Positions 20,323 to 63,750 of a stretch of DNA of 64,000 nucleotides are shown here, piece by piece; position 1 is the first letter of the stretch; each line of letters starts with the position of its first letter. A program made the translations under genes and the position numbers. The stretch comes from an uncultured Verrucomicrobiota bacterium (GTDB lineage Bacteria; Verrucomicrobiota; Verrucomicrobiia; Palsa-1439; CAYGDP01). The notes under the pieces were generated by a model that was given only the letters and a program-made list of their open reading frames with translations, did no database searches and had not been told where the DNA came from. Location: NCBI GenBank assembly GCA_964348665.1, contig CAYGDP010000002.1, forward strand, positions 110,033-174,032. The letters are read 5' to 3'.

Positions 20323-20370
20323 TTTTCATTTACTTTCCGGGGTTTACGCGTAGATTGTCCGCGCTTCGGT

Positions 20371-42138: not shown

Positions 42139-42776
42139 GATTCCTGAAAAATTTTTTTGGATCGGTAAAAAAAACAGAGTCGCCGGCGGGTGGCACTGTT
42201 TTGGGGACGTTACTTCAAGCGAAGGAGGCGATTGACACGGAAAACGTTGTGACACTTGAGTCATTGTTGCGTAAACATCCCTCACTCGGCGAGGAACTTG
42301 ATGACTTGGGCTGGTCGCTATTGCATTATGCAGTGGCTCATTACAAGCTTCAGTCGATAGCGCGAATGCTCTCATGCGGATTGAACGTTAATATTTCCAC
42401 AAAGAATGGAAATTGTACGCCTTTGTTTTTTGCGTGTGCTGGGAATGGTCCAATAGAAATGGCACAACTGCTGATTGAACACGGAGCAGACGTTAATTGG
42501 AGAGACGAAGAAGGTGGAACAGCGCTTCATGCGGCAGCAAACCATAACCGAACAGACCTAATTACTCTTCTGATAGCAAAGGGATCTGAGGTAAATGTAA
42601 AAAGGAAGGCCGATGGATGGACTCCACTACATTGTGCAGATAATCTTGAGACGGTAAAGTTGCTCATAGAAAAAGGGGCAAATTCAGCAGCACGGGACAG
42701 GTGTCGACGCACGCGGATGGATATTGCAAGGGGAGCAAAGCAAAACGACATAGCCGAATTTTTGCAGAGATTGTAA
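42135..42776 (+). CDS. ankyrin-repeat protein, candidate immunity protein 2
   Basis: Start overlaps the previous stop (ATGA). Ankyrin repeats ('GWSLLHYAVAHYKLQSIARML', 'GNCTPLFFACAGNGPIEMAQLLIEHGADVN', 'GGTALHAAANHNRTDLITLLIAKGSEVN'). Confidence 0.7.
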   Translation: MRFLKNFFGSVKKTESPAGGTVLGTLLQAKEAIDTENVVTLESLLRKHPSLGEELDDLGWSLLHYAVAHYKLQSIARMLSCGLNVNISTKNGNCTPLFFACAGNGPIEMAQLLIEHGADVNWRDEEGGTALHAAANHNRTDLITLLIAKGSEVNVKRKADGWTPLHCADNLETVKLLIEKGANSAARDRCRRTRMDIARGAKQNDIAEFLQRL

Positions 42777-47734: not shown

Positions 47735-47807
47735 AGATTCAGAAGGACTCTAGCCTATCGCGAAGACCGAAAAAAGCAACATCTCGCTGAATTACGGCCT
47801 CGCCGCT

Positions 47808-51041: not shown

Positions 51042-51383
51042 TCAGTCATACTTTTTGCGCAAGAAAATCCGATACGGGCGGTGTGTCTTGTTTCTGGCCG
51101 ACTGTGCGCGGTCGTAATAAACCAGCAGCTCGGAGTCTTTCGAGTCGAGCGGGACGGTATTGGCCAAAAAACGCAGGGCTAGGCCAACAGTGGAGGCACT
51201 GCGATTGCAGAGTTTCATGAGCCGTGAAAGGCTCAAAGGATACTGATAGCAAGACCGAGTACGATAGAGGATTTGGTAGTAAAAGACAATTTTTTGGTAA
51301 ACAAGCGCCAGAAGTTTCGCTTGCCGCTGATCGAGTTCCTCCACGATCCCCGACCTAATCCAAAGTCGCTTCTCCATTTCCAC
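51042..51383 (-). CDS. small helix-turn-helix-like protein
   Basis: 113 aa. 'LSRLMKLCNRSASTVGLALRFLAN' is HTH-like. Overlaps the end of the ATPase gene (same operon). Confidence 0.4.
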   Translation of the reverse strand: MEMEKRLWIRSGIVEELDQRQAKLLALVYQKIVFYYQILYRTRSCYQYPLSLSRLMKLCNRSASTVGLALRFLANTVPLDSKDSELLVYYDRAQSARNKTHRPYRIFLRKKYD

Positions 51384-52728
51384 CTCCCGCCAAAAAATCG
51401 TCTCCGACCGTTCCCTTCTTCACGGGCACGAGCGGAAACTTCACGTGAGAGGGCGAGATTCGGCCTTTGATTTTCACAATCCCTTCTCCCACGGCTAAAC
51501 GATCCAGAAATACCTCATCACCGAGCTCAAGAAAAAGAGCACGCTTGGCTGTCATGATGTCATCCTCGTGCTGCAATCCCAGATAAATCTGCGTGTTGGA
51601 ATTACCCAGCACATAGATCGGCAGCAGTGAAGGATGCTGAGTGATCGTGACCAATCCCTCGCCGAATCCACGGATTTCTCGGAAGACGTTTTCGAGGCTG
51701 TTGGACGCCTGTTTTTCAATATATGTCTTAGGAAAAAGATTGTGAACTTCCTCCAAGAAAGTGACGTGCCGCAAGCTTTCGGTCTCGCCCTGTCCCAAGC
51801 GATAGAGATGAATCCAGCGCAGGATGATGTCGCTAAAGAACACACGTAGCGGCTTGGGTAATTCTTGGTCGAGCTCGATGATGATGGGTTTTTCCAGAAG
51901 CTCTTCGAGCTTCAAGGGGTGTCTGGCATTAAACGCCCCACCCGAAGGGCCAAAGATAAAAGTTTTTAGGATTCTTGAACAACTATCCTGCCAGAGCATT
52001 CGACGCCCTCGGAAATGCAGGCGTTGTAGTTCCTCATTGGCGTCGAAGAAATTTGGATAACGCTCGAAAGTATTATCGTAGATTCCTGCTTTCTCGAACT
52101 CTTTGTCGAAAATCTCCATGAAAATATCCGCCACTCCCGGACCGGAAATGTGGGATTTCTCAAGCGCCTCAGCTACGACAGCAATCCAAGTTTTCGGATG
52201 AACACCGGGCGGAGCGCGCAGAGGATTCCAATTGAAAGAGGAAGCCGTTTTTCTACCAACAGAAAATATTTTCATCTCTTTCAGCTTCGGGTGCTCTAAA
52301 GTGAAAAGATCGCGATAGCTACGTTTCCAATCTACGACGAGAAAGGGGATGTCCCTTCCCAAGAGACCGAGCAAGAGAAGCTGTGCCACATTGGTTTTAC
52401 CGGCGCCTGTGATGGAAAAAATCCCAATATGCTTTAAGAAATTCTCTCGCGTCAGGTAGAGTGGATAGCAGGGCTTCTGATCATAAACGACCGTTCCAAG
52501 AAAAATCTCTCCCTTGGCAGCCTCGGCGGGCGGCGGGGGAAGCAGGATGGGCATTTTATCTACGGCTCCTCCCAAATGCTGCGCCGCGAAAATCTGTATC
52601 AACGACTCTGCTTCCCGCTTGGAATCGAGGGTCTCAGCCGTCGCGTAGCCCAGCCAGAGCATATCGGCTCGCTTGCCCACGATGGGTTTCAATTTCTTGC
52701 AAATGTCTTTAAGTTCACGATCCAGCAT
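51355..52728 (-). CDS. HerA/FtsK-superfamily (DUF87-like) P-loop ATPase
   Basis: Walker A 'FSITGAGKTNVAQLLL', Walker B 'IIIELDQE'. 457 aa. Confidence 0.7.
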   Translation of the reverse strand: MLDRELKDICKKLKPIVGKRADMLWLGYATAETLDSKREAESLIQIFAAQHLGGAVDKMPILLPPPPAEAAKGEIFLGTVVYDQKPCYPLYLTRENFLKHIGIFSITGAGKTNVAQLLLLGLLGRDIPFLVVDWKRSYRDLFTLEHPKLKEMKIFSVGRKTASSFNWNPLRAPPGVHPKTWIAVVAEALEKSHISGPGVADIFMEIFDKEFEKAGIYDNTFERYPNFFDANEELQRLHFRGRRMLWQDSCSRILKTFIFGPSGGAFNARHPLKLEELLEKPIIIELDQELPKPLRVFFSDIILRWIHLYRLGQGETESLRHVTFLEEVHNLFPKTYIEKQASNSLENVFREIRGFGEGLVTITQHPSLLPIYVLGNSNTQIYLGLQHEDDIMTAKRALFLELGDEVFLDRLAVGEGIVKIKGRISPSHVKFPLVPVKKGTVGDDFLAGGGNGEATLD

Positions 52729-53182
52729 GTTCGAGGAAAATCGCGCGGCCTTTGGACTGCTGATGGGTTTCCCAGATTTCCAGGAAATCCTTCATGACCA
52801 TCGCCACATCGCGCCAGCACTCGACCTCCTGTTGTCGACGCTCGGTCTGTAGATCGAAAAGCTGCTGATAAAATATGGATTTCTCGCTGTGTTCGCGAAG
52901 ATGGTAATTGGCAGCGTTATCGAGGCGATTTAGCATTTCTTGGACGGCTTCCTGCTGGGAATCCACACCTCGCAGATTGCGTCCCATCACATTCAATCGA
53001 ACCAGAATCTCTGCCGTGAGGACTTCCAGCTTGGTGTGGAGAAGCTTGGATTTCTGGTGGACGAGATTTTCTAAGTCAGATTCATCTAGGGAATCATTTT
53101 CGGGTTGCTGGGTTACATTGCTATACTGCGGTATACCGATTTCCGAAAGCCTTAAATAGGGTGATTTTTCCATGTTTTGCAC
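52715..53182 (-). CDS. coiled-coil hypothetical protein, first gene of the ATPase operon
   Basis: 155 aa, heptad-rich. Its stop overlaps the ATPase start. Confidence 0.45.
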   Translation of the reverse strand: MQNMEKSPYLRLSEIGIPQYSNVTQQPENDSLDESDLENLVHQKSKLLHTKLEVLTAEILVRLNVMGRNLRGVDSQQEAVQEMLNRLDNAANYHLREHSEKSIFYQQLFDLQTERRQQEVECWRDVAMVMKDFLEIWETHQQSKGRAIFLEHAGS

Positions 53183-53201
53183 TCCTAGGAGTACAAAAAC
53201 G

Positions 53202-53954
53202 ATGAATATAACTTCGTTCCCATCAAACAGTTCGGAAATTCAGCATCGGCGATTTTCCCAACCGATTGTATGCCAACTATTTTTATTGAAAATTGTGCGC
53301 CTCGCGATGGGCAAGCTCAACCAGCATCACCAATGGCTTATGCGAGGCAGTCAACGATGGGCAATCGCCGAAGTCTTGGTAAGACCCATGACTGGACTGG
53401 AAATCATGCGGGACTCTAGAAAACGCAATAGTCACATTCAAATGCCCGATGTTTTGTTTATCCTACACCAGCTCGAACAGAAGGGGCTGGCGTACTGCCT
53501 GAATCCGCAGCAAACGACTGGCAAGCTGTATTTTTGGACAAAGTTGGGAAGAGCAGTGATCTCAAAGCAATCTGGCCATATCCTTCGGGCCATCGACCGA
53601 AAAATCAATTGGAACCTCTACTCTTACATTGTACGCGCCAAAGTTCGACGCCGGGTGCTGCTGGAACTGTCAAAACTACAGGAAAACGAGGTGAAGGAGT
53701 TGACCACAACGAGAATCCGCAAATCCTTGAATACGAACTTTCCTATTGGACTGAATCCCACGATCCGAGCCCTGAAAGAGCTTTCGGATCTCATGCTGGT
53801 TCGGTGCGTCGGATTTACCGAGAAACGGAACCTGAAGATTTACCAATTGACGGAAATCGGCGAAAGAATCGCAGACAATTTACGTCAACCAGTCGTCGCT
53901 CTTGCTGTGGATAGGTCATCAGACCTGCGACAACCATTGGGAAAACCTTTTTAA
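53202..53954 (+). CDS. hypothetical protein with two winged-helix-like segments
   Basis: Divergent from the ATPase operon (the ORF track's start at 53172 overlaps it, ATG at 53202 does not). 'WAIAEVLVRPMTGLEIMR' and 'RVLLELSKLQENEVKELT' are wHTH-like. Confidence 0.4.
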   Translation: MNITSFPSNSSEIQHRRFSQPIVCQLFLLKIVRLAMGKLNQHHQWLMRGSQRWAIAEVLVRPMTGLEIMRDSRKRNSHIQMPDVLFILHQLEQKGLAYCLNPQQTTGKLYFWTKLGRAVISKQSGHILRAIDRKINWNLYSYIVRAKVRRRVLLELSKLQENEVKELTTTRIRKSLNTNFPIGLNPTIRALKELSDLMLVRCVGFTEKRNLKIYQLTEIGERIADNLRQPVVALAVDRSSDLRQPLGKPF

Positions 53955-53976
53955 ACAAAAACCACATCTTTAGTGG

Positions 53977-54660
53977 ATGGGTGGGAAATATTATGCGCCA
54001 TTGGCCTACGTCGAGAAATATTACCGCGAGGACGCCGAAGATGATGTCCGCTTTCCAAAGGAAGCGAAGTTTTGGCGGTCGTTTTTGAAGCAAGTGCAAG
54101 GCAAGTCCGTTTTGAGCGTGGGATGCGGACCGCAATTTTACGATGATTGCCAATTTTTCAAGAGCGTGCCGAAGGAATATGTCGGAATGGACGTGAACCG
54201 AGCAGTTTTTGATTTCTTGCGCAGCTCGACTCATACGAGACTGATAAATGGGAAGAAATACGCCGCGCGCCACGGCATTCGGACGAAACTGATCTGCGGA
54301 GACATCACTCGATATTGCATGAGGTTTATGGAGCGATTCGATACAATCCTTGCTGTGGGGGTGTTGGGAAACTTCGGTGAGGAAAAACTTGGCCAACTGG
54401 TAGAATATCTCCATGAGTATCTGAAAAAAGGCGGATTGCTGATTAACGTGGAATGGACGGACTGCCATCTGCCTACTAGGGAATTCCATAAAAAATTGCA
54501 GTACCGTTTTTACGCCGACCGAGTTCCTAGCATGGAGACGATCGCGAAGATTCTCAAGGAGAAAGGCTTCTCAATTGAACGGCAAGCGGTATTCGACGTG
54601 GAGAATCCAAAGGCATACGGCTGGGGAAAAATCTACGGCTACGTTGCCAGGAAGCGATAG
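53977..54660 (+). CDS. class I SAM-dependent methyltransferase
   Basis: Motif I 'SVLSVGCGPQ', acidic motif II 'YVGMDVN'. 227 aa. Confidence 0.65.
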   Translation: MGGKYYAPLAYVEKYYREDAEDDVRFPKEAKFWRSFLKQVQGKSVLSVGCGPQFYDDCQFFKSVPKEYVGMDVNRAVFDFLRSSTHTRLINGKKYAARHGIRTKLICGDITRYCMRFMERFDTILAVGVLGNFGEEKLGQLVEYLHEYLKKGGLLINVEWTDCHLPTREFHKKLQYRFYADRVPSMETIAKILKEKGFSIERQAVFDVENPKAYGWGKIYGYVARKR

Positions 54661-54700
54661 GGGTCTTGAATCGAACGCTTCTCGCTGATACAACGCCAGT

Positions 54701-55552
54701 GTGAAACTCTTGAGTGTATCCCGCGACATTGGCATTGAGATGCGCGACCTCGTGCGGCTAGAGAAGAAGCGGAGCCGATACCACGTGATTAAGCTCTATC
54801 GGCATGCACATTTGGGCAAGATTCTTTTCATGGACGGCCAAATCATGCACGTCGAAGCCTGGGCGCCTCTCTATCACGAACCGCTCGTGCATCTGCCAAT
54901 TGCATTTCAGAAAAGGCCAGTAAGCGTATTGATCCTTGGGGGTGGATCGTTTTTTGCCGCGCACGAAGTTCTGAAATACAAATCTATCAAACGAGTCTTG
55001 ATGGTAGAACATGATGATGCAGTCATGGAACTGACTCGCAAATACTATTCGCACGCAAGAAAATGCTTGGCCGATCCTCGACTGGAGGTGCGTTGCTGCG
55101 ATGCTTATCGGTTTGAAATGACTTCGACTGAAAAATTTGATCTGGTTGTAAACGATGGAGTCGATCTTCTTTCGCTTGTCGGACATAAGGCTATATCATC
55201 GCCCTTTGAGAGGATGGCAGACTTGCTCACACCGACAGGAATCTGTTCGGATGTTATCGATAGGCATTTATTTGAGCGCTCATGGATAGCGAAGACGATT
55301 AAAGAAGTTACCAGTCGGCACCGAGTTTCCGTTTCCATTCTACCTATTCCCGAATACCCAGGAACTTTGCATGCTTTGGTTCTTTGGGGCCGCGACAAAC
55401 AACTTAGTCAGGAGCTCAAGCGTCCTGTTAACCTCGAACAGCGGAAATGGATCGATTCTCCCCAATCAAACCCATGTTCGTATTACGATCCTCGCCAATT
55501 GTCGCATTATTTATTTTTACCGCCTTACGCGCAACGTTTGCTGGCGCGATGA
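54701..55552 (+). CDS. spermidine-synthase (PABS)-like protein with a degenerate signature
   Basis: 'ILFMDGQIMHVEAWAPLYHEPLVHLP' and 'VLILGGGSFFAAHEVLKY' parallel PABS '...YHE...HLP' and 'VLIIGGGDGGVLREVL', but the conserved GGGDGG aspartate is replaced. Confidence 0.55.
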   Translation: MKLLSVSRDIGIEMRDLVRLEKKRSRYHVIKLYRHAHLGKILFMDGQIMHVEAWAPLYHEPLVHLPIAFQKRPVSVLILGGGSFFAAHEVLKYKSIKRVLMVEHDDAVMELTRKYYSHARKCLADPRLEVRCCDAYRFEMTSTEKFDLVVNDGVDLLSLVGHKAISSPFERMADLLTPTGICSDVIDRHLFERSWIAKTIKEVTSRHRVSVSILPIPEYPGTLHALVLWGRDKQLSQELKRPVNLEQRKWIDSPQSNPCSYYDPRQLSHYLFLPPYAQRLLAR

Positions 55553-55621
55553 AGGCGGACAATGTCTCCCTCCAAACTGTTTGTAGGCAATCCATATTAA
55601 AATGGCACACTACGATTTCGC

Positions 55622-55792
55622 ATGGCAAAACCTTCCCTCTCCAAAATTTTCCAAGAATTGCGCGATCTCCTCCGCGAGATCCAAGACCACCTGCAACAAG
55701 CCCAGAGCGCGTTTGGCGACATTGACGCCAAGTTGGATTATTTCATCAAGAACCTGCATCGCTATCCCGTGAATCATATTTCCCATGAATAA
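55622..55792 (+). CDS. small coiled-coil protein (56 aa), below the ORF-track cutoff
   Basis: Hand translation 'MAKPSLSKIFQELRDLLREIQDHLQQAQSAFGDIDAKLDYFIKNLHRYPVNHISHE'. Followed by the CTGACTT/AAGTCAG hairpin. Confidence 0.3.
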   Translation: MAKPSLSKIFQELRDLLREIQDHLQQAQSAFGDIDAKLDYFIKNLHRYPVNHISHE

Positions 55793-55981
55793 TTTGAAGC
55801 AAGCCTAGAGCCTGACTTTTTCAAGTCAGCCGCTCTCTTGTTTCGCCTTTTCACGTTCTCACGTGAAAAGAACCTAGAAATGTCCAGCCAACCCACGGAA
55901 TCACCTGGGTTGTGTAGCTGGGCGTTTAACCACGATCGTTTTGCATTTGTGCAGAGCGATCGCAATCGAAAGGAGAAAACC

Positions 55982-56344
55982 ATGAACGTATGTACTCTCT
56001 CCGGGAAACTCGTGGATAATGCCGTGGTCAATGGAGCAGAATTCAAAGCTCTGTTTTTCACGGTGCTCACGAAGTACGGATACAACACAACGGAGAAGAA
56101 GGATCGCGTGGCGTATGTACCCTGCGTCATGTGGAATCCAAACCAGGAGATTGAAAAACTCCTCGTCGAAAACGGCAAAGGCCTATGGATCGAAGTCGAA
56201 GGTAGGGTCGCTCGTTCCAGTTATGAAGAGAACGGTCAGCGTAAATTCAACACTGAAGTCGTTGTGAAGAATCGGACGTTGAACGTGCTCAAGAGAAACG
56301 GAACGGGACACGGTGAGTCTATCGAGAAAGGAGCATCGCAATGA
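55982..56344 (+). CDS. SSB-like OB-fold protein 1
   Basis: ATG at 55982 with RBS 'aaaggagaaaac'. 'MNVCTLSGKLV...LWIEVEGRVARSSYEENGQRKFNTEVVVKN' parallels SSB 'IEGRL..R.W.D..G.KR..TEIVV'. No acidic C-terminal tail. Confidence 0.6.
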   Translation: MNVCTLSGKLVDNAVVNGAEFKALFFTVLTKYGYNTTEKKDRVAYVPCVMWNPNQEIEKLLVENGKGLWIEVEGRVARSSYEENGQRKFNTEVVVKNRTLNVLKRNGTGHGESIEKGASQ

Positions 56345-56694
56345 ACGTGTGTATCCTTTCTGGATGGCTCATGAACAACGCCCTCGCTCCAAAAACAGAA
56401 TCCCATGCCTTGTTTTTTACCTTGGTCACAAAATTCGGGTATGACAAGGCGGCTAGGAGGAATCTGATTACTGGTGTGCGGTGCGTGATGTTCGATCCGT
56501 CGCCTGAGATCGAGAAACTGCTGGTTGAGAAGGGAAAGAAGCTGGCAGTGGAAACAGAGGGTTACGTTCGCTTTTGGCGCTACAATGCCAAGGGCGGGTG
56601 TAAACTCGAAGCGGAAGTTGTCGTCAAAAACGACAGCTTTACGGTGTGGAGGCGGTTTCAAGGTCGAGCTTCCCAGAAAGGAGGCTCGCCATGA
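56341..56694 (+). CDS. SSB-like OB-fold protein 2 (paralog of the upstream gene)
   Basis: Start overlaps the upstream stop (ATGA). 'MNVCILSGWLM...LAVETEGYVRFWRYNAKGGCKLEAEVVVKN'. Confidence 0.6.
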   Translation: MNVCILSGWLMNNALAPKTESHALFFTLVTKFGYDKAARRNLITGVRCVMFDPSPEIEKLLVEKGKKLAVETEGYVRFWRYNAKGGCKLEAEVVVKNDSFTVWRRFQGRASQKGGSP

Positions 56695-57152
56695 ATGCGC
56701 TAGCGCAGCCCAAGGAATACAAAGTAGTTGCCTTGCGGGAATGCCCAACACCGATGGAACTGCAATCGTGCGATTGCCCTAGCAAAGCAGCCGAGTATTG
56801 GAATCGGAACGTCATCACGGCGTCTTATTTCAATCCCGACTGCGAGTGCTTTGTAGTGGTGATGCTCAATACCAAGAACCGCGTCAAAGGCCATTATTTG
56901 GTTTCATTTGGCACAGTTAACGCGAGCTTGGTACACGCTCGGGAAGTATTTCGAGCGGCCATCATTGCAGGTTCGACGAGCGTCTTGCTGATGCACAATC
57001 ACCCCAGCGGTGATCCGACACCTTCAAGCGAGGATGTCCGCATCACCAAGCAACTGGTTCAAGCAGGCAAGATTCTCGGCATTGAAGTCATGGACCACGT
57101 GATTGTCGGTTATGACAAGCACGTTTCACTTAAGGAGTTGGGACTGTTGTAA
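56691..57152 (+). CDS. RadC-like JAB-domain (DUF2466) protein
   Basis: RBS 'aaaggagg'. 'LLMHNHPSGDPTPSSEDVRITKQL...GIEVMDHVIV' is the JAMM/RadC signature. Confidence 0.85.
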   Translation: MNALAQPKEYKVVALRECPTPMELQSCDCPSKAAEYWNRNVITASYFNPDCECFVVVMLNTKNRVKGHYLVSFGTVNASLVHAREVFRAAIIAGSTSVLLMHNHPSGDPTPSSEDVRITKQLVQAGKILGIEVMDHVIVGYDKHVSLKELGLL

Positions 57153-57171
57153 GGCAAAAAACCGTAAGAAA

Positions 57172-57203
57172 CGCTGCTCTCTTAGCGGAGAGCGGCTTTT
57201 TTT
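57172..57203 (+). terminator. rho-independent terminator after the RadC-like gene
   Basis: GC-rich hairpin 'gctgctct...agagcggc' followed by TTTTTTT. Confidence 0.5.
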
Positions 57204-57232
57204 GTTTAACCCAAAAAAGAAAGGAGAACTAT

Positions 57233-57736
57233 ATGGGAGCTGATCTTTACATTGTGGAGATTAGCCTGCCAATCCAAGAGTGGTATGAGCCGCTCTTTGA
57301 TAAGGCGGTAAGGCAAAGAAATCTCTGGCCGAAAGGTTCAGAGAGGGAGCAGAAAGCGCACAAGGACGTGGTGAGATATTACAACCTGATGCACGCAGCG
57401 GGATATTTCAGCGATCCTTATGACGCGAGCAGTTTGCTCAAACATCTCGGACTCTCTTGGTGGTCGGACGTCCTGCCCCTGTGCGACCAAGACCGTCGTC
57501 TTGAAGACGAAAGCTTGAGGAAGTTCCGCGCAATGGTAGGGCGCAATCCCGTGCAGTATCCGACCGAGGAAGAGTTCAAGAAAGAACTGGTAGCTCTGGA
57601 AGACGGCAGGAAAAGTCTGGATGCATGGTGCAGATACTTCGCAGCGAAGCACATGACGCTGATGTTGTTTCTGGACCAGGCACTTTTGCTGGATGCCGCC
57701 GTGCATTGCTCCTTTGGAATTCCTGACGGAAGATAG
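57233..57736 (+). CDS. hypothetical protein, 'MGADLYI' family paralog A
   Basis: RBS 'aaaggaga'. 167 aa. Shares 'MGADLYI..L.....YKPLF(D/E)KAV.QR...P.......K.......Y..L....GYF.D.Y...LLK.LGLSWW..V.PL' with the gene at 58514. Confidence 0.55.
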   Translation: MGADLYIVEISLPIQEWYEPLFDKAVRQRNLWPKGSEREQKAHKDVVRYYNLMHAAGYFSDPYDASSLLKHLGLSWWSDVLPLCDQDRRLEDESLRKFRAMVGRNPVQYPTEEEFKKELVALEDGRKSLDAWCRYFAAKHMTLMLFLDQALLLDAAVHCSFGIPDGR

Positions 57737-57850
57737 GGCAACGCTGGGAAGCGACCTGAGCGCCGGCAGGACTGTCACGCCAATGCGGCAAGACAACCTG
57801 CTCCTCGTCTTTCACGGCGGGGAGCAGGTCTGTTTTTCCGTCGCTGGCAT

Positions 57851-57936
57851 CGGAATAAACCCCGGAATTAACCCGGAATAAAGCCAGAATAAACCCGGAA
57901 TTAAGTTTATTCCGGTCTATTCCGAGGAATAAATCC
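57851..57936. repeat. iteron-like array of eight GGAATWAA units (six direct, two inverted) at 10-11 bp phasing
   Basis: 'cGGAATAAAccccGGAATTAAcccGGAATAAAgccaGAATAAAcccGGAATTAAgTTTATTCCggtctATTCCgaGGAATAAAtcc'. Confidence 0.55.
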
Positions 57937-58038
57937 TTCTGTTTGGCACCGCGCTTCCTTACGGGGATGCGACTGCTGGGCAGAATCGCTCGGTATCAGC
58001 CGCGGATCGCAGCGGCAATTCAAGAAGGAGAAACAACC

Positions 58039-58443
58039 ATGAATACAGTAGAGAAGTTGCAGTGTACCCAAGACCCGCTCTCGGTCTATGAAGAAACCGC
58101 GAGAGCTTATGCGGATTGTACAATCGGCGGAAAGGAAGGGGGAAAGTTGCGGAATCTGAATTTCCGCGCTTCCGCTCCTTTGCGCCTGCTCGAATGGATG
58201 GAGTGCATGAAACGCGCTACTCCTGAAGGATACAACCAGTTCAACGCCGTACGAGTCGGACGGGTTCTGGCGCAACTCGGCGTTAGTCTGGATGCGGTGT
58301 TCATTCCCGCTCGGGAGTACAGCGTTTGCGTTTATGTACGGGCCGATGGATGGCTCTTGCAACATATCCTCAACAACGCTGCCGCTCTGCAGGCCGATGA
58401 AGCCGATATCGTGGACGGCGAGTTGCGTTTGTGGTGGGATTAA
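58039..58443 (+). CDS. hypothetical protein
   Basis: ATG at 58039 with RBS 'aaggag'. 134 aa, no motif. Confidence 0.45.
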   Translation: MNTVEKLQCTQDPLSVYEETARAYADCTIGGKEGGKLRNLNFRASAPLRLLEWMECMKRATPEGYNQFNAVRVGRVLAQLGVSLDAVFIPAREYSVCVYVRADGWLLQHILNNAAALQADEADIVDGELRLWWD

Positions 58444-58513
58444 ATGGAGGGTCGCGCAATGCGGCCTCCTCCCACTTTTAATCATCAACAATCGAAAGAA
58501 AGGAGACGTGTGT

Positions 58514-59002
58514 ATGGGTGCAGACCTCTATATCCATCAGCTCTACGATCCGACGAAAGAAAGGTATAAGCCGCTTTTTGAAAAAGCGGTAATGCAGAGG
58601 GATTCATTTCCACGAGATTCGAAGGAATGGAAAGTGGCCCAACGGAAAGTCTGGAAGTACTTCGACCTGATGAATTCCAAGGGCTACTTCCGCGATTCGT
58701 ATAGCACGGCAAACGTGCTTCGGACGCTGGGTTTATCGTGGTGGCGAAATGTGATCCCCCTGCTTAACAAAAAGAACGAACTGGAAGGCAAGAACCTGAA
58801 AAAGTTCCGCAAGATGGTAGCCAATGCAAAACAACGTCTGCCAACGAAAGCGGAGCTTCAGAAAGATGGAGCGCGTGGAAAACGATCGGGAGCAAACCGT
58901 TTGAAGATGTGGCGCAAGTATTACATCAGGAAACGAGCGCGACTCATCGCGTTTCTCGACGAGGCGATCAAACGGAATCACTCGATCCACTGCTCGCTCT
59001 GA
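58514..59002 (+). CDS. hypothetical protein, 'MGADLYI' family paralog B
   Basis: ATG at 58514 with RBS 'aaaggagacg'. Colinear with paralog A over the first 100 aa or so. Basic C-terminal tail. Confidence 0.55.
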   Translation: MGADLYIHQLYDPTKERYKPLFEKAVMQRDSFPRDSKEWKVAQRKVWKYFDLMNSKGYFRDSYSTANVLRTLGLSWWRNVIPLLNKKNELEGKNLKKFRKMVANAKQRLPTKAELQKDGARGKRSGANRLKMWRKYYIRKRARLIAFLDEAIKRNHSIHCSL

Positions 59003-59125
59003 CTGAAAAAACTGGCGTGCGGCTTCGCTTACACGCGCGGCCGCATGACAGAACAGAAACGGGTTTTGTGGAATCCCCCGCAAACCCGAAAAAACCAACA
59101 AACCCCAAAAGAAAGGAACATCAAC

Positions 59126-60202
59126 ATGAAGAATGAAAGTATCACGTTGTATTACCGTGAAGGTTCATCGGACAAAGTTTATCAAGCGGCCATTGAAGAA
59201 AAGAACGGCGGGTTCGTCGTTAACTTCGCCTTTGGCCGTCGGGGCAGCACGTTACAGACGGGGACGAAAACAGCATCACCTGTAAGCTTCGAGGAAGCAA
59301 AGCGGGTCTATGACAAACTGGTAGCTTCCAAGGTCGGAAAGGGTTACACACCGGGCGCAGACGGGACTCCTTACGCGCAAACCGAAGAAGCAGGACGCGT
59401 AAGCGGGTTTCTGCCGCAGTTGTGTAATCCAGTCAGAGAGGACGAGGTTGCGTGCATCCTCCCTGACAAAAGCTATTGGATGGAAGAAAAGTTCGACGGA
59501 AAGCGCATGTTGCTTCGCAAAGAAGGACAGAACGTTGTCGGCATCAATCGGAAGGGTCTGGTTGTTGCATTGCCGCAGCCGTTGATTATGGCAGCGCAAA
59601 AGTATGACGAGAGCTTCCTGCTCGATGGCGAATGCGTCGGAGAGACGCTTCACGTCTTCGACTTGCTCCTCCTGAACGGCGAGAAAATGGTAGGTCTCGC
59701 GATGTGTGAACGGCGACACACATTGGAGGAGCTGCTGCAGATTGACGATCCGCACTTGTTGCTCGTTGAGACAGAGAAATCGGTGGCGGGAAAGGCTGAG
59801 AAGTTTACCTACTTCAAAGCCATGCGAAAAGAAGGCGTCGTGTTCAAGCGATACAACGCCCCTTACGCTCCAGGACGGCCTGCCAATGGTAGCGGATGGT
59901 TCAAGCACAAATTCGTCACAAGTGGATCGTTCATAGTGAGCCGTGTGAACGCCGATCGCCGCAGCGTCGGTCTTGAAGTATTCGAGGAGAGAAAACGCAT
60001 CGGAGTCGGCAATGTCACGATACCCGTTAACGCCGAAGTGCCAATAGTAGGCGACATCATCGAGGTACGTTACCTCTACGCCTATCGTGGTGGGAGTCTG
60101 TTTCAACCCGTGTATCTGGGACCGCGAGATGATCTCTCGTTGCTCGATTGCACGGTGCGAGAGTTGAAGTATCGCGCAGAAGATAGTGAAGAAGAGGCAT
60201 AA
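59126..60202 (+). CDS. WGR-domain / ATP-dependent DNA ligase fusion protein
   Basis: ATG at 59126 with RBS 'aaaggaa'. N-terminal WGR-like domain ('ITLYYREGSSDKVYQA...FAFGRRGSTLQTG...EEAKRVYDKLVASKVGKGY'). Ligase motifs: I 'EEKFDGKR', III 'LLDGE', IV 'EGVVFKR', V 'GWFKHKF', VI 'PVYLGPRDD'. Confidence 0.85.
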   Translation: MKNESITLYYREGSSDKVYQAAIEEKNGGFVVNFAFGRRGSTLQTGTKTASPVSFEEAKRVYDKLVASKVGKGYTPGADGTPYAQTEEAGRVSGFLPQLCNPVREDEVACILPDKSYWMEEKFDGKRMLLRKEGQNVVGINRKGLVVALPQPLIMAAQKYDESFLLDGECVGETLHVFDLLLLNGEKMVGLAMCERRHTLEELLQIDDPHLLLVETEKSVAGKAEKFTYFKAMRKEGVVFKRYNAPYAPGRPANGSGWFKHKFVTSGSFIVSRVNADRRSVGLEVFEERKRIGVGNVTIPVNAEVPIVGDIIEVRYLYAYRGGSLFQPVYLGPRDDLSLLDCTVRELKYRAEDSEEEA

Positions 60203-60301
60203 GCCTTTTTCTTCTGGGATTAGGTCGAGACGCCGTGCCCTGCGGCGTCCGATCTACTTCTCATCTAAAAAATCAGAAATCCAAAACAGAAAGGAAAATG
60301 T

Positions 60302-60697
60302 ATGTGCATCAATTGGAAAATAATTCACAAGTACACTCGTGCTGATGCAATCAGAGACGGAGTGCTTGTGGACTTGCGACAGGGAGAGTTGGCAGAGGTC
60401 GTTGAGAATGCCGGGATCAAAGTTCCAGTGGCAATGACGCGTACTGCATTCGAGCGTTATGTTTCACTAACGCAAGCAGCACAGGAAGCGGGCAACGACA
60501 TAAAGGGTCGGCTCTGGGACATCCTTTGGATGTATCGGTGCGCCGCGCAGAAGAATCCTCATGAAAGCGTGATGTGCTTTTCATTCTACTGCGTCGTGGA
60601 TCAGCCTAAGCCGAAAAAGTGCGAGATCAAGGTAATAGTCGGTCCAGGAGACGATCCTGCGCCCGTATTGACGTTCCTGCTACCCAAAGAAGATTGA
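60302..60697 (+). CDS. hypothetical protein
   Basis: 131 aa, in the same operon between the ligase and ArdC-like genes. Confidence 0.4.
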   Translation: MCINWKIIHKYTRADAIRDGVLVDLRQGELAEVVENAGIKVPVAMTRTAFERYVSLTQAAQEAGNDIKGRLWDILWMYRCAAQKNPHESVMCFSFYCVVDQPKPKKCEIKVIVGPGDDPAPVLTFLLPKED

Positions 60698-60777
60698 GCG
60701 CTAGGCGGCTTAGCTTTCATGCAAGGCCCGGCGGTCATTCAAAATTCAGAAAAAAATCAAACCGAAAGGAAAATACC

Positions 60778-61668
60778 ATGAACAAAGTGTATGAAATTGT
60801 CACGCAACGTATCATCAATGCGTTGGAACAAGGAGAAATCCCGTGGCGACCGCGATTCAGCGTTGACAAAGGCTTGCCACGCAACGCCGTCTCGAAAAAG
60901 CCCTATCGGGGCGTTAATCTCCTGTTGCTCTGGCTTGCTAGATATCAGGACAATCGCTTCCTGACGTTTAAGCAAGCAAAGGAAATGGGCGGGGAAGTAA
61001 AGAAGGGAGAGCACGGTTGGCCGGTAATCTTTTGGAAACTCCAAGAGATAGACGAAACCATCCCAAGCACGGGAGAGTTAAAGCAAGTTCCTGTGTTGAG
61101 ATACTACACCGTGTTCAATGTATCGCAGTGCAGTGGATTGGGCTTGCCAAAGATTATTGAGGTGAGTGAGTTCACGCCTATTGAAATGGGCGAGCGCATT
61201 CTCCTCGGCTATCCCAATCCGCCCTGCGTCTTCTATGGAAAAGGCTGCGGTTGTTATCGGCCGTCCGATGACATTGTGGAGATGCCGCGCCCTGAAACGT
61301 TCCAGAAAAATGAGCACTACTACTCCGTGCTTTTCCACGAGCTAGTGCATAGCACAGGACACGCGAAGCGGCTAAATCGCGAGGAAATAGCCACGCCAAA
61401 GAAATTCGGCAGCGAGCCGTACTCACGCGAGGAACTCGTCGCCGAACTTGGTTCTGCGTTTCTCTGTGCGGAGTGCGGAATCGAGCAAGACACGTTGGAG
61501 GATCATGCCGCCTACATTCAAGGTTGGCTCAAGCGACTCAAAGATGATTCGCGTTTGATCGTGTTGGCTGCTGCCGCTGCACAGCGCGCCGCTGATCACA
61601 TTCTTGCGCGGACCTTTGAGTCAGTGGAAAGCTCCGCTGAAACTGCCGCGCCAATGCTCGTATCGTAA
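60778..61668 (+). CDS. ardC: ArdC-like antirestriction protein (N-terminal ssDNA-binding DUF1738-like + C-terminal zincin metallopeptidase)
   Basis: ATG at 60778 with RBS 'aaaggaaaa'. 'IPWRPRFS...PYRGVNLLLLW' N-domain and HExxH 'FHELVHSTGH' C-domain. Confidence 0.8.
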   Translation: MNKVYEIVTQRIINALEQGEIPWRPRFSVDKGLPRNAVSKKPYRGVNLLLLWLARYQDNRFLTFKQAKEMGGEVKKGEHGWPVIFWKLQEIDETIPSTGELKQVPVLRYYTVFNVSQCSGLGLPKIIEVSEFTPIEMGERILLGYPNPPCVFYGKGCGCYRPSDDIVEMPRPETFQKNEHYYSVLFHELVHSTGHAKRLNREEIATPKKFGSEPYSREELVAELGSAFLCAECGIEQDTLEDHAAYIQGWLKRLKDDSRLIVLAAAAAQRAADHILARTFESVESSAETAAPMLVS

Positions 61669-61676
61669 AGGCCGAA

Positions 61677-61717
61677 ACGCCGCACTAAATCTGCGGCGTC
61701 CTAGCGTCACGCGCTAG
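61677..61717. terminator. two consecutive hairpins between convergent genes
   Basis: ACGCCGCA-ctaaatc-TGCGGCGT (61677-61699) and CTAGCG-tcacg-CGCTAG (61701-61717). Confidence 0.4.
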
Positions 61718-61777
61718 CTGATGAGGTCGATACCGTACCGTGACTATCTTAACAGGCAGTGCTTGTGACGCACGCCA

Positions 61778-62001: not shown

Positions 62002-63645
62002 TCATTTTTTTCTCCGTGCCGGTCTTTTACCGGAACGAACCAAAGCAAGCCGCTGTTTTTTAAGCGCCATGTGAAATTCGTAATCTTCGCTTGCTTCGCG
62101 CAAGATGTAAGATTGATGCGCTAAACGATCAGGATACCTCGGAAGTGCCTCTTGCTTGCGCTTAGCCCAAGTAATGATTTCGCCTTGCTCTTTTCTCGGA
62201 AGCATTGGGAATAGGTCGAAGTATCGCCGAGAGGAAATACCTGAGAATTGCTTGAAGTGAACAAATCTCGAAAGAGGTTCACTGTCATCGACATCAACTT
62301 TTATCGAGTCAGAATGGTGCTCTTGTGCAAAACTTTTTGGATAAGGTTCCGTATAGATCACCTGACGGATTCCAGCCGCAACGATATGCCTGGCACAAAC
62401 GTGGCAGGGAAAGGTCGTGGTGTATAACGTAGCTCCGTCTACTCGAACTCCGCGCCGTGCCGCATCCATTAACGCGGCCATCTCCGCATGCACCGTACGT
62501 GCAAACTCCCCTACCTGCATAAGTGTTCCATCCCCAATTAAACTTAGAATTTCTTGTTCTTTATTCTTCTTAAATGTTTTGGCATTTAAATCCAAGATTC
62601 CTTTGTGGAGCAGTCTCTTTTTATAAAACTTTTCTAACAACTCAAAGAGCCCGGTTTTTTTAACAGTAGTGCCAACATCTGCCCCCAGACGGAAATCACG
62701 GGCATCGCCTTCGTCGCCATTCCAATATTGACCTCCACCGGCTTTGGGTACTTCGTTTGTTCCAACTGATATTATTGATCCATCAGGATCCACAATGGCT
62801 GCCCCAACTTGGCGTGATAAATCTGCAGAACGGAACGCAGCAGACTGGGCAAAAAACATTCCATACTCCTGCCTCGATGGAGAATGGCTCGGATGACGGA
62901 ACAGAAGTTGAACGTATCTTTGAACCGAGATGCGCATTTCCTCAGGATCTCCTACATCTACGAATAGGTCAGCTTTAGAAAATGTGTCGCGCATATTCTG
63001 GCCGAAATCAGCGTATTCTTCTTTTTCATCGCGTTGAATTAACGATTGGGCGATCGGGCGGGACCGATCAGATCTCGGATCCCGTTTTGAATCTGCGATC
63101 CGTTTCGCGAGTCTTAGAACCCTGGACTCCCGTGGTGAGTACGCTGAGATCAAATGAAAGGCATCGCAGTATACCTGTCGGAGGAGTCTTGCCTCATCCG
63201 GATGCTTCAAAGATCTAAGTAGGAATGCAAGATTCGGTACGGGCTTATTCTCGTATTTCCAAAAATCCCTTGGGCCCTTCGGTTGAGGCGGAGGAATTGG
63301 CCTCTTAAATCTTTTCCTCCAGTAAGAGTATCGAATGTCGCGTATCTGATTTATGGCAACAAGTGCCAAGGCATCTCCGCGCTTAAGGGTTTTCCTTAGT
63401 TTATTGCCTGCGTCCATGTGTAAAGTGATCCTTGTATCCTCAGGACTAAGCGGGAGATTCTTCCACTTCCGGAATTGATGCAATAATTCAGCGAGATGTA
63501 TCTCCTGGGTCTTATATCCTACTTCGGAGAGCGAATCTGTAATGGCTTGAGAAACCTCCGTGAGGCCGGCACCTAACGGACCGGCTAAAGCGAAGAATAA
63601 CTCTGGTCTCTCTGACGTGCTGATTTGTTTTTGTTTGAATTCCAT
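62002..63645 (-). CDS. nucleotide-kinase-like + CMP/dCMP-deaminase-domain protein, resembling anti-phage dCTP deaminase (DCD) defence proteins
   Basis: ATG at 63645 with RBS 'gaaagga'. N-terminal P-loop-like 'FFALAGPLGAGLTEV'. C-terminal zinc-deaminase 'HAEMAALMDAARRG...TFPCHVCARHIVAAGIRQVIY' (H-A-E ... P-C-x-x-C). Confidence 0.6.
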   Translation of the reverse strand: MEFKQKQISTSERPELFFALAGPLGAGLTEVSQAITDSLSEVGYKTQEIHLAELLHQFRKWKNLPLSPEDTRITLHMDAGNKLRKTLKRGDALALVAINQIRDIRYSYWRKRFKRPIPPPQPKGPRDFWKYENKPVPNLAFLLRSLKHPDEARLLRQVYCDAFHLISAYSPRESRVLRLAKRIADSKRDPRSDRSRPIAQSLIQRDEKEEYADFGQNMRDTFSKADLFVDVGDPEEMRISVQRYVQLLFRHPSHSPSRQEYGMFFAQSAAFRSADLSRQVGAAIVDPDGSIISVGTNEVPKAGGGQYWNGDEGDARDFRLGADVGTTVKKTGLFELLEKFYKKRLLHKGILDLNAKTFKKNKEQEILSLIGDGTLMQVGEFARTVHAEMAALMDAARRGVRVDGATLYTTTFPCHVCARHIVAAGIRQVIYTEPYPKSFAQEHHSDSIKVDVDDSEPLSRFVHFKQFSGISSRRYFDLFPMLPRKEQGEIITWAKRKQEALPRYPDRLAHQSYILREASEDYEFHMALKKQRLALVRSGKRPARRKK

Positions 63646-63750
63646 TGTGGTCCTTTCTAAGGGAGCTTTTTGTAATTGTCCTCCACATATCCTGCGGACT
63701 TGCAACTCTCAACGCTCTCCATGAGATTTTCGCTCATGATAAAATTCTCT

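What the first reader, a model, noticed from the sequence alone, without database searches (positions are those of the whole stretch)
55982..61668. Tightly packed single-strand-oriented operon resembling a plasmid/ICE leading region
Nine co-directional genes have strong RBSs and overlapping or short junctions. They encode SSB-like x2, RadC-like JAB, the 'MGADLYI' paralog pair with a small gene between, a WGR-ligase, a hypothetical and ArdC-like.

SSB, ArdC and RadC-like genes are typical early-entry 'leading region' functions of conjugative DNA that protect incoming ssDNA and counter host defences. Here they sit in a tRNA island with no relaxase, T4SS or coupling protein in the window.

This may be the establishment/anti-defence module of an integrative mobilisable element. 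The unknown genes in it are prime anti-defence candidates.
Basis: partly seen in the sequence, partly recalled or inferred. Interest (0 to 1): 0.7.

Follow-up and report, generated by a model that had tools for sequence, protein, structure and literature searches.

The report
ArdC–SSB–RadC–ligase mobile-element establishment module
A real block of same-strand genes from an integrated mobile element in a Planctomycete/Verrucomicrobium-type genome looks like a kit for protecting and completing newly arrived DNA, but nothing shows that it sits next to a transfer origin, and it is three transcription units rather than one tight operon.

Summary
The nine + strand genes exist as described: two short SSB paralogs, a RadC-like JAB protein, two "MGADLYI" paralogs with a small gene between them, a WGR-fused ATP-dependent DNA ligase, DUF6573 and a full-length ArdC. 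Each has a GAAAGGA-type ribosome-binding site. Only the first three overlap. The other junctions are 70-302 nt and hold two terminator-like hairpins and an 11-bp repeat array, so there are probably three units.

Synteny moves the start upstream to a winged-helix gene at 53172.

Relatives support a mobile-element origin:
- The ligase subfamily has at least 372 metagenomic loci.
- In three of them the order is ligase>ArdC>RadC, next to a coupling-protein gene. Two of the three also have a Replic_Relax gene and a primase.
- An Acidobacterial plasmid carries ArdC-ParB-ligase.
- DUF6573 is on 223 plasmids, 136 of them conjugative.
- MGADLYI has about 900 cluster representatives, no Pfam family and no close fold match. 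It also occurs on 48 viral contigs.

No relaxase, T4SS, coupling protein, oriT or att repeat was found in the 71.7 kb available, and the flank is a defence island. "Establishment/anti-restriction module" is the best reading. "Leading region" is untested.

A candidate type II hammerhead ribozyme follows ardC.

The parts
53172..53954 (+). Winged-helix (PadR/EarA-like, weak) DNA-binding protein. Conserved first gene of the module and a likely regulator.
   Evidence: 39% identity, E 1e-46, to the first gene of the syntenic Verrucomicrobia module (L014 256-840). Also opens the module in L069.
53977..55552 (+). Two cargo-like genes in the same direction: a class I SAM methyltransferase (53977-54660) and a spermine/spermidine-synthase-fold protein (54701-55552).
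   Evidence: Pfam. Absent from the related modules. The methyltransferase has a weak PADLOC mad2 hit.
55622..55792 (+). Small helical ORF (56 aa), conserved upstream of SSB.
   Evidence: Similar MAK...LR..L..I..KLD..I proteins sit at the same position in L014 (2549-2728) and L019 (2612-2779). The similarity was judged by eye; phmmer found no homolog among the 80 ligase loci.
55793..55981 (+). Leader with four consecutive hairpins directly before ssb1. The first hairpin (about 55812-55829) is conserved.
   Evidence: Folded as ssDNA: -47 kcal/mol against -21.7 for shuffles, z -7.57. Hairpin 1 is kept with a compensatory change in L014/L019. No sigma-70-like promoter.
55982..56344 (+). ssb1, a short OB-fold SSB (120 aa) with no acidic C-terminal tip.
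   Evidence: PF00436 33.1 bits. PHROG 44. C-terminus checked.
56341..56694 (+). ssb2, a paralog of ssb1 (117 aa). Its start overlaps the ssb1 stop by 4 nt.
   Evidence: 46% identity to ssb1, E 1e-33. No Pfam hit of its own.
56691..57152 (+). RadC-like JAB metalloprotease-fold protein (153 aa, JAB domain only).
   Evidence: PF04002 5.6e-39. HNHPSGDPTPSSED motif. 51-53% identical to the RadC of L014/L019.
57173..57206 (+). Terminator-like hairpin plus T run that ends the ssb-ssb-radC unit.
   Evidence: 10-bp stem followed by TTTTTTTGTT. Terminator-like hairpins follow radC in L014, L019, L115 and L138.
57233..57736 (+). MGADLYI family protein 1 (167 aa).
57796..57829 (+). Strong hairpin (14 pairs) after mgad1, terminator-like.
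57850..57940 (.). Array of 11-bp repeats (CGGAATAAACC): five direct copies followed by inverted copies. Candidate protein-binding site (operator, or centromere-/iteron-like).
   Evidence: TRF period 11, 4.5 copies, score 72.. The motif occurs only once elsewhere in 71.7 kb and is absent from L014, L018 and L019.
58039..58443 (+). Small gene (134 aa) from a rare family.
58514..59002 (+). MGADLYI family protein 2 (162 aa, basic).
   Evidence: 40% identical to mgad1. 50-57% identical to homologs in L005, L015, L018 and L019.
59126..60202 (+). WGR-domain-fused ATP-dependent DNA ligase (358 aa). The start is 59126, not 59045.
   Evidence: Pfam WGR plus DNA_ligase_A_M. KFDG motif I. RBS. At least 372 metagenomic relatives.
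60302..60697 (+). DUF6573 protein (131 aa).
   Evidence: PF20213 5e-31. Present on 223 PLSDB plasmids, 136 of them conjugative.
60778..61668 (+). ArdC: an N-terminal ssDNA-binding domain plus a zincin metalloprotease (HELVH).
   Evidence: Pfam. PDB 6SNA/6I89 (R388 ArdC), E 1.5e-45 over residues 4-276. PHROG anti-restriction family, 6e-75.
61670..61728 (+). Candidate type II hammerhead ribozyme, starting 2 nt after the ardC stop. Predicted cleavage is 3' of C61700.
   Evidence: CUGAUGA, GAAA and GUC are all present, with stems of 8, 7 and 4 bp. The MFE fold is the three-way junction. Rfam score is 26.6 bits, below the gathering score of 37. A second example lies in the homologous module, L014 4867-4917.

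Best explanation
The region is part of the backbone of an integrated mobile genetic element in a PVC-type bacterium. It is an 'establishment' module whose products act on the element's own DNA when that DNA is single-stranded or newly arrived.

Proposed roles:
- The two SSBs coat the single strand.
- ArdC, an ssDNA-binding protein with a metalloprotease domain, counters restriction.
- The WGR-ligase senses and seals nicks or ends, for example to close the completed or recircularised molecule.
- RadC, the MGADLYI pair, the small protein and DUF6573 are accessory factors. Their chemistry is unknown. They are probably directed at host proteins or defences.

Expression is organised in about three units:
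- ssb-ssb-radC.
- mgad1.
- small-mgad2-ligase-DUF6573-ardC.

All genes have uniform strong ribosome-binding sites. The units follow structured or repeat-rich control regions, and the last probably ends at a self-cleaving ribozyme.

Shown: gene identities, motif integrity, recurrence of the gene combinations on plasmids and mobile-element-like contigs, and the sequence signals.

Inferred: the order of events, action in a recipient cell, anti-defence roles for the unknown genes, and ribozyme activity.
For: Gene identities and intact motifs.

Synteny with modules in other genomes:
- L014 (a Verrucomicrobia MAG) and L019/L020 carry wHTH (L014 only)-sORF-SSB-primase-RadC...WGR-ligase-MGADLYI, at 37-53% protein identity to the window.
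- L069 carries wHTH-SSB-primase-ligase-RadC.

Links to conjugation genes in relatives:
- L115, L138 and L141 have ligase>ArdC>RadC with a TrwB_AAD_bind/TraG-D_C coupling protein. L138 and L141 also have a Replic_Relax protein and a primase.
- L018 has a coupling-protein-like gene, PDDEXK, MGADLYI, ArdC and a serine recombinase.

Real plasmids:
- pACPOL3 has ArdC-ParB-WGR-ligase.
- pCIG1485E has SSB...Cas4...Bet...ArdC-like-x-DUF6573...toprim in a one-direction array.
- DUF6573 starts a small-gene array next to the T4SS genes in pSB102 and pP33-1.

RBS uniformity.

The closest analogue is the pLS20-family establishment regulon: ardC plus variable unknown genes, in several operons, each preceded by an inverted-repeat-rich region (PMC8708921). 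SSBs and anti-restriction genes on one strand typify leading regions (PMC11541004).
Against: - No relaxase, oriT, T4SS or coupling protein was found in the window or the 7.7 kb beyond it.
- No att repeats were found and the element's ends are unknown.
- The block sits between a HerA-like gene set and a defence island (dCTP deaminase, SIR2, PDDEXK and others). It could therefore be a stranded remnant.
- No primase or clamp is present here, unlike in many relatives.
- MGADLYI is absent from PLSDB plasmids and common on viral contigs, so it is not specific to conjugation.
- None of the 80 closest ligase loci carries MGADLYI or DUF6573. This exact gene set is a one-off mosaic.
- No expression or functional data exist.
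Confidence: 0.55

Rival explanations
1. A true leading region. The block lies next to an undetected oriT of an integrative mobilisable or conjugative element, enters the recipient first, and is transcribed early. Transcription might start from the single strand, using the hairpin-rich region before ssb1 as an ssDNA promoter or priming site.
For: - All genes are on one strand.
- SSB and ArdC are present.
- Directly before the first SSB gene is a 189-nt stretch with an exceptional ssDNA fold (z -7.57). Frpo elements sit in the same position in known plasmids (PMC11541004).
- Relatives have a coupling protein, and two of them a Replic_Relax gene, within a few kb.
Against: - No relaxase or oriT was found in 71.7 kb.
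- No -35/-10 boxes lie in the hairpin region.
- Only hairpin 1 is conserved. The equivalent spacers in L014 and L019 are not unusually structured.
- The G-U-tolerant covariation in hairpin 1 fits an RNA element as well as a DNA one.
Confidence: 0.2
2. A replication/recombination module of a phage-like, satellite or plasmid-like integrative element that is not tied to conjugation. SSB, ligase and, in relatives, primase, a beta-clamp-like protein and a PDDEXK nuclease would replicate or repair the element's own genome. ArdC and MGADLYI would be general early genes.
For: Among 80 ligase loci the commonest neighbours are:
- a beta-clamp-like protein (37 loci);
- a PDDEXK nuclease (28);
- DUF1257 (18);
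- DUF3150 (16);
- an AAA ATPase (7);
- a primase (4).

MGADLYI lies on 48 IMG/VR viral contigs, often beside a T7 gp4-like primase-helicase. A jumbo phage carries the ligase. Homologs of the small gene sit in phage-like arrays.
Against: - No capsid, terminase or replication initiator is in the window.
- ArdC and DUF6573 are mainly plasmid-borne.
- Coupling-protein genes lie next to the module in several relatives.
Confidence: 0.2
3. A decayed or domesticated remnant. The genes are leftovers of an old element, now trapped in a defence island, and either inert or co-opted for host DNA repair.
For: - No transfer genes or att sites were found.
- Defence genes flank the block.
- A second integrase lies about 7 kb upstream, which suggests repeated insertions.
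Against: - All nine ORFs are intact with catalytic motifs and matched strong RBSs.
- GC content (about 0.51) stays below that of the core region (0.55-0.60).
Confidence: 0.05

Closest known systems
Establishment regulons of pLS20-family conjugative plasmids (ardC plus variable unknown genes)
   Same: - ardC is the anchor gene.
- The partner genes are many and mostly uncharacterised.
- The genes are split into several operons.
- Each operon is preceded by an inverted-repeat-rich or operator-bearing region. A winged-helix protein is sometimes present (PMC8708921).
   Different: - No sequence similarity to EGeRS1/2.
- The host is a PVC-type bacterium and the element is integrated, not a plasmid.
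- The module contains a WGR-ligase, RadC and two SSBs.
- Transient expression has not been tested.
Leading-region anti-defence islands of conjugative plasmids (F, IncI, IncW R388 ardC-ssb region; Samuel et al. 2024)
   Same: - One-strand gene orientation.
- SSB plus an anti-restriction gene (ArdC).
- A structured DNA element just upstream of the SSB gene.
- Strong translation signals (PMC11541004, PMC13478746).
   Different: - No oriT or relaxase nearby.
- No psiB, ardA or klcA.
- The methyltransferase upstream is a generic class I SAM enzyme, not a recognisable DNA methyltransferase.
- No -35/-10 boxes in the hairpins.
- It carries a ligase and RadC, which that paper's main text does not mention (0 occurrences).
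R388 ArdC (PDB 6SNA/6I89)
   Same: Full-length two-domain match, E 1.5e-45, with HExxH intact.
   Different: Activity and target are unknown here. The gene partners differ.
Undescribed WGR-ligase module of environmental mobile elements (PDDEXK, DUF1281_C, RadC, WGR-ligase, beta-clamp-like, DUF3150, DUF1257, DUF2997, AAA ATPase)
   Same: - Ligases 47-66% identical.
- RadC, SSB and the wHTH gene are shared with L014, L019 and L069.
- MGADLYI lies next to the ligase in L014 and L019.
   Different: - The window lacks the clamp-like protein, the DUF3150/1257/2997/AAA set, the primase and the PDDEXK nuclease.
- It has ArdC, DUF6573, a second SSB and a second MGADLYI instead.
- No paper in the searched library names this module by its DUF families.
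Type II hammerhead ribozymes (Rfam RF02276)
   Same: Complete catalytic core and three stems, with stem II open. The position is intergenic on the sense strand.
   Different: The score is below the Rfam gathering threshold. The loops are short, with no evident tertiary contact. Cleavage is untested.

Membership tests
Plasmid/ICE leading region | Lies next to oriT, on the side that enters the recipient first. | tested here: inconclusive
   No relaxase, T4SS or coupling-protein domain was found in the ORFs scanned at 1-18, 20.5-22.5 and 41-64 kb, nor in the 7.7 kb downstream. The giant ORF was not scanned. oriT cannot be recognised without its relaxase family. The element's ends are unknown.
Plasmid/ICE leading region | Genes co-oriented on one strand (the T-strand). 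| tested here: met
   Thirteen consecutive + strand genes lie at 53172-61668. Which strand would be transferred is unknown.
Plasmid/ICE leading region | Enriched in anti-restriction genes, SSBs, methyltransferases or SOS inhibitors. | tested here: met
   ArdC and two SSBs are present. No psiB, ardA, klcA or acr hits.
Plasmid/ICE leading region | Frpo/ssi-type single-strand promoter: a hairpin carrying -35/-10 boxes. | tested here: inconclusive
   The ssDNA structure before ssb1 is strong (z -7.57), but no sigma-70-like boxes are there. The host's promoter consensus may differ.
Integrative conjugative/mobilisable element | An integrase with flanking att repeats, plus a relaxase and oriT. | tested here: not met
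   Integrases lie at 20523-21743 and 47808-48950. No tRNA-derived or other flanking repeat of 14-15 nt or more was found. No relaxase was found. Only 71.7 kb of the 246-kb contig was available.
ArdC | N-terminal ArdcN ssDNA-binding domain plus a C-terminal zincin domain with HExxH. | tested here: met
   PF08401 3.2e-31 and PF18818 1e-38. HELVH at residue 187. R388 ArdC structure match, E 1.5e-45.
ArdC | Anti-restriction activity during conjugation. | not testable with these tools
   Needs mating assays into restricting recipients.
RadC-like JAB | JAB domain with the H-x-H...S-x-x-D metal-binding motif. | tested here: met
   PF04002 133 bits. HNHPSGDPTPSSED. At 153 aa the protein is much shorter than the NCBIfam RadC models (about 212-218 positions) and matches only their C-terminal half.
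Bacterial SSB (PF00436) | OB fold matching the family model. | tested here: met
   ssb1 scores 33.1 bits against a cutoff of 26. ssb2 qualifies only through 46% identity to ssb1.
Bacterial SSB (PF00436) | Acidic C-terminal tip (D-D-D-I-P-F type) for partner recruitment. | tested here: not met
   The C-termini are ...GESIEKGASQ and ...RASQKGGSP.
ATP-dependent DNA ligase | Nucleotidyltransferase domain with the KxDG adenylation motif. | tested here: met
   PF01068 63.4 bits. KFDG at residue 122. PDB ligase matches cover the nucleotidyltransferase region only.
DUF6573 | Match to PF20213 above the gathering score. | tested here: met
   108 bits against a cutoff of 27, covering the full length.
Hammerhead ribozyme type II | Conserved core (CUGAUGA, GAAA, cleavage triplet UH) at a three-stem junction. 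| tested here: met
   Window 61670-61728: stems III/I/II of 8, 7 and 4 bp, and the MFE fold equals the junction.
Hammerhead ribozyme type II | Rfam RF02276 gathering score. | tested here: not met
   26.6 bits against 37. A spurious snoRNA hit reached the same E-value in another search.
DNA-mimic anti-restriction proteins (for MGADLYI) | Uniformly strong negative charge that mimics DNA. | tested here: not met

The most novel reading that the evidence does not exclude
The block is one mosaic of a widespread but undescribed 'DNA entry kit' of environmental mobile elements and phages. The kit is built around a nick-sensing WGR-ligase. MGADLYI (about 900 sequence clusters, confident model, no close fold relative, invariant N-terminal G-A-D and R-D-x-Y-N residues) would be a new enzyme-like anti-defence or DNA-processing family shared by phages and conjugative elements. 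Self-cleaving hammerhead ribozymes would punctuate the module's transcripts.
Probability: 0.25. Interest if true: 0.7.

Novelty: new variant of a known kind. Interest (0 to 1): 0.5.

Why it matters
Establishment and anti-defence modules are known almost only from plasmids of Proteobacteria and Firmicutes. This locus and its relatives extend them to PVC, Acidobacteria and soil or freshwater lineages.

- They tie ArdC repeatedly to a WGR-fused DNA ligase whose role in mobile-element biology has not been studied.
- MGADLYI is a sizeable unannotated protein family that moves between phages and conjugation-linked modules. That is the profile of an anti-defence or DNA-entry factor worth testing.
- If the hammerhead candidates cleave, they would be an example of ribozyme-based transcript processing in such modules.

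Tried and rejected
- **att sites.** A search for a tRNA-Pro-derived att repeat (14-mers) and for any 15-mer linking 19-50.5 kb with 50.5-71.7 kb gave nothing above chance.
- **The small protein and DUF1281_C.** Tested because the position matches, but there is no similarity. Its model has no fold neighbour.
- **The wHTH protein as a hidden Replic_Relax relaxase-like protein.** No similarity to the L138/L141 proteins.
- **The HerA-like ATPase (51355-52728) as a coupling protein.** No similarity to the L018 protein. It has only DUF87/HerA hits and weak PADLOC HerA/mad8 hits.
- **The 11-bp repeat array in relatives.** Absent.
- **Hammerheads in relatives.** Rfam at gathering threshold found none in seven related loci. 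Rfam also did not report the L014 motif.
- **Host name.** Two cluster look-ups returned no names.
- **DUF6573 structure.** The afdb50 library was unavailable.
- **Literature.** Searches for DUF6573, DUF3150, DUF1257, DUF2997 and DUF1281 found nothing on such modules.

Full report
**1. What is in the sequence**

ORF listing and start-site inspection give nine + strand genes at 55982-61668. The same genes are called on the public contig that holds this window, a 246-kb metagenome contig (ENA ERZ27247820 k141_690336).

Pfam assigns the following:
- ssb1 to SSB (33.1 bits, cutoff 26).
- The third gene to the RadC-like JAB family (5.6e-39).
- The seventh gene to WGR plus the ATP-dependent DNA ligase domain (1.5e-6 and 3e-17).
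- The eighth gene to DUF6573 (5e-31).
- The ninth gene to ArdcN plus MPTase-PolyVal (3e-31 and 1e-38).

Further checks:
- ssb2 has no hit of its own but is 46% identical to ssb1.
- The two 'MGADLYI' proteins are 40% identical. Neither they nor the small gene between them match Pfam, NCBIfam, PADLOC or PHROGs.
- Catalytic motifs are intact: RadC HNHPSGDPTPSSED, ArdC HELVH, ligase KFDG. Both SSBs lack the acidic C-terminal tip.
- ArdC aligns over its whole length with R388 ArdC (PDB 6SNA/6I89, E 1.5e-45).

**2. How far the 'tight operon' holds**

Every gene has a GAAAGGA(G)-type Shine-Dalgarno sequence. Nine of the window's 11 + strand GAAAGGA copies fall in 55968-60770, and eight of them sit just upstream of module start codons. 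That is clearly non-random.

Only ssb1/ssb2/radC overlap (-4, -4). The remaining gaps are 80, 302, 70, 123, 99 and 80 nt.

- A 10-bp hairpin plus a T run follows radC (57173-57196).
- A 14-bp hairpin follows mgad1 (57796-57829).
- Terminator-like hairpins also follow radC in L014, L019, L115 and L138.

I therefore read three units: ssb-ssb-radC, then mgad1, then small-mgad2-ligase-DUF6573-ardC.

The 302-nt gap also holds five direct and two to three inverted copies of an 11-bp unit (CGGAATAAACC, 57850-57940). The unit is unique to this locus. It is most simply a protein-binding array, either an operator or a centromere-/iteron-like site.

**3. The module is longer than reported**

The winged-helix gene at 53172-53954 is 39% identical (E 1e-46) to the first gene of a syntenic module in a Verrucomicrobia MAG (L014).

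A 56-aa helical ORF (55622-55792) has look-alikes at the same position before SSB in L014 and L019. That similarity was judged by eye. The hairpin just after it is kept with a compensatory change.

The 189 nt before ssb1 fold into four near-perfect hairpins (ssDNA -47 kcal/mol against -21.7 for shuffles, z -7.57). The equivalent spacers in L014 and L019 are not unusual. No sigma-70-type -35/-10 is present.

**4. Surroundings**

Upstream:
- Core genes lie at 1-20 kb: DnaE and a DUF1501 plus PSCyt1/PSCyt2/PSD1 pair. This indicates a Planctomycetota/Verrucomicrobiota-type host.
- tRNA-Pro lies at 20370, with an integrase beside it, then a NusG-like gene and a 6177-aa ORF.
- Next come ankyrin genes, a second integrase (47808-48950, - strand), a PRiA4_ORF3 protein and a HerA-like ATPase.

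Downstream is a defence island. It holds a dCTP deaminase (PADLOC 4e-149), a PDDEXK nuclease, a nucleoside deoxyribosyltransferase, SIR2, GIY-YIG, QueC and Vsr.

No relaxase, T4SS or coupling-protein domain was found in the ORFs scanned or in the 7.7 kb beyond the window. No att-like repeat was found. The tRNA is 35 kb away, so 'tRNA island' is not established for this block.

**5. Relatives**

*MGADLYI family*
- A profile search gives 906 cluster representatives.
- None is on a PLSDB plasmid.
- Forty-eight are on IMG/VR viral contigs, often near a T7 gp4-like primase-helicase.

Contexts on long contigs:
- L014 and L019/L020 have SSB-primase-RadC...WGR-ligase-MGADLYI-DUF1281_C-DUF3150-DUF1257-DUF2997...AAA.
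- L018 has a serine recombinase, a coupling-protein-like gene, PDDEXK, MGADLYI, ArdC and a type I RM system.
- L017 is phage-like.

*WGR-ligase subfamily*
- It has at least 372 metagenomic loci.
- Among the best 80, the neighbours are a beta-clamp-like protein (37 loci), PDDEXK (28), DUF1257 (18), DUF3150 (16), DUF1281_C (14), RadC (13), ArdC (7), AAA ATPase (7) and primase (4).
- L115, L138 and L141 carry ligase>ArdC>RadC with a large coupling protein (TrwB_AAD_bind plus TraG-D_C). L138 and L141 also carry a Replic_Relax protein and a primase.
- The ligase is on 19 large plasmids and one jumbo phage. On Acidisarcina pACPOL3 it follows ArdC and ParB.

*DUF6573*
- It is on 223 plasmids, 136 of them typed conjugative.
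- It lies near the start of a one-direction array of small genes beside the T4SS genes in pSB102 and pP33-1.
- It follows RadC in a Paenibacillus plasmid.
- In Campylobacter pCIG1485E it lies one gene after an ArdC-like zincin, within an SSB-Cas4-Bet-...-toprim array.

*The small gene* has only four distant homologs. The one whose contigs were looked up lies in phage-like arrays.

**6. Structures**

MGADLYI models with pLDDT 95.6.
- Foldseek against PDB finds nothing.
- The family's pI runs from 4.3 to 10.4, which argues against DNA mimicry.
- Near-invariant polar residues (G2, D4, R29, Q43, R60, D61, Y63, N64, S75-W76-W77, S160) lie in or next to the three predicted strands. This suggests a defined active or binding site (inference).

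**7. A ribozyme candidate**

Two nucleotides after the ardC stop, 61670-61728 matches Rfam Hammerhead_II over the full model, but below threshold (26.6 against 37 bits).

- All core nucleotides are present: CUGAUGA, GAAA and GUC.
- Stems of 8, 7 and 4 bp are present.
- The MFE fold is exactly the junction.

My motif scan covered 1.59 Mb of all fetched loci on both strands. It found only this site and one more, in the homologous L014 module between radC and the next gene (4867-4917). Three shuffles gave 0, 0 and 1 hits.

Rfam did not list the L014 site, and a spurious hit reached the same E-value elsewhere. This remains a candidate.

**8. Interpretation**

The best-supported reading is an establishment-type module of an integrated mobile element. 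It would protect single-stranded DNA (SSBs), counter restriction (ArdC) and seal nicks or ends (WGR-ligase), with accessory factors of unknown chemistry.

The nearest described analogue is the pLS20-family establishment regulon: ardC plus variable unknown genes, in several operons, each behind an inverted-repeat-rich or operator-bearing region (PMC8708921). The general leading-region picture of one-strand SSB and anti-restriction genes also applies (PMC11541004; PMC13478746).

The specific 'leading region' claim needs an oriT, which was not found.

A replication/recombination module of a phage-like or plasmid-like element is a serious rival. The clamp, nuclease and primase partners, and the viral distribution of MGADLYI, support it.

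A stranded remnant is less likely, given intact genes and matched translation signals.

**9. Verdict**

- It is a new variant of a known kind of module.
- The unstudied WGR-ligase/ArdC linkage, the MGADLYI family and the hammerhead candidates are the parts worth following.

Noticed in passing
window 61670-61728 (+); L014 4867-4917 (+): Candidate type II hammerhead ribozymes on the sense strand in intergenic positions of two homologous modules. One lies right after ardC in the window, the other after radC in L014. Both have the full catalytic core and three stems, but the window copy scores below the Rfam gathering score and Rfam did not list the L014 copy.
   Followed up: partly
window 57850-57940: Array of 11-bp repeats (CGGAATAAACC): five direct copies then inverted copies. 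It lies in the 302-nt gap after a strong hairpin and is unique to this locus. It may be an operator, or a centromere- or iteron-like site.
   Followed up: partly
window 55793-55981: Four consecutive near-perfect hairpins directly upstream of ssb1 (ssDNA fold z -7.57). They include the palindromes CTTTTCACGT-TCTC-ACGTGAAAAG and CGATCGTTTTGCA-TTTG-TGCAGAGCGATCG. Their function is unknown.
   Followed up: partly
window 21963-22505 and 22866-41399 (+): A NusG-like gene lies a few hundred nt upstream of a single 6177-aa ORF, next to tRNA-Pro and an integrase. Ankyrin-repeat genes follow at 41554-42776. The giant ORF was not analysed.
   Followed up: no
window 62002-63705 (-) and L001 11225-20891: A defence island lies immediately downstream. 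It holds a dCTP-deaminase defence gene (PADLOC 4e-149), a PDDEXK nuclease, a nucleoside 2-deoxyribosyltransferase, SIR2_2, DUF6884+GIY-YIG, QueC, Vsr, a response regulator and a histidine-kinase-type ATPase.
   Followed up: partly
window 51042-53182 (-) and 53977-54660 (+): A HerA/DUF87 ATPase with two small unknown genes runs divergently from the module. The ATPase has weak PADLOC hits to HerA and mad8, and the neighbouring methyltransferase has a weak hit to mad2 (the MADS system). The hits are too weak to assign either gene.
   Followed up: partly
L069-L148 (80 metagenome loci), e.g. L099 12644-14125, L114, L126, L144: A recurrent and apparently undescribed gene set surrounds the WGR-ligase: a beta-clamp-like protein of about 494 aa with a long C-terminal tail, PDDEXK, DUF1281_C, DUF3150, DUF1257, DUF2997 and an AAA ATPase.
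   Followed up: partly
window 59089-59121, 60267-60299, 60742-60774: Similar A/C-rich leaders of about 33 nt (AAAAAA.CA.AAA.CC.AAA.AGAAAGGAA.AT) precede the ligase, DUF6573 and ardC genes. They may be shared translation or processing signals.
   Followed up: no
window 46700-48950 (-): A second tyrosine integrase (47808-48950) lies next to a DUF7309/DUF6930 protein. This suggests more than one insertion event in the 41-64 kb low-GC stretch.
   Followed up: no
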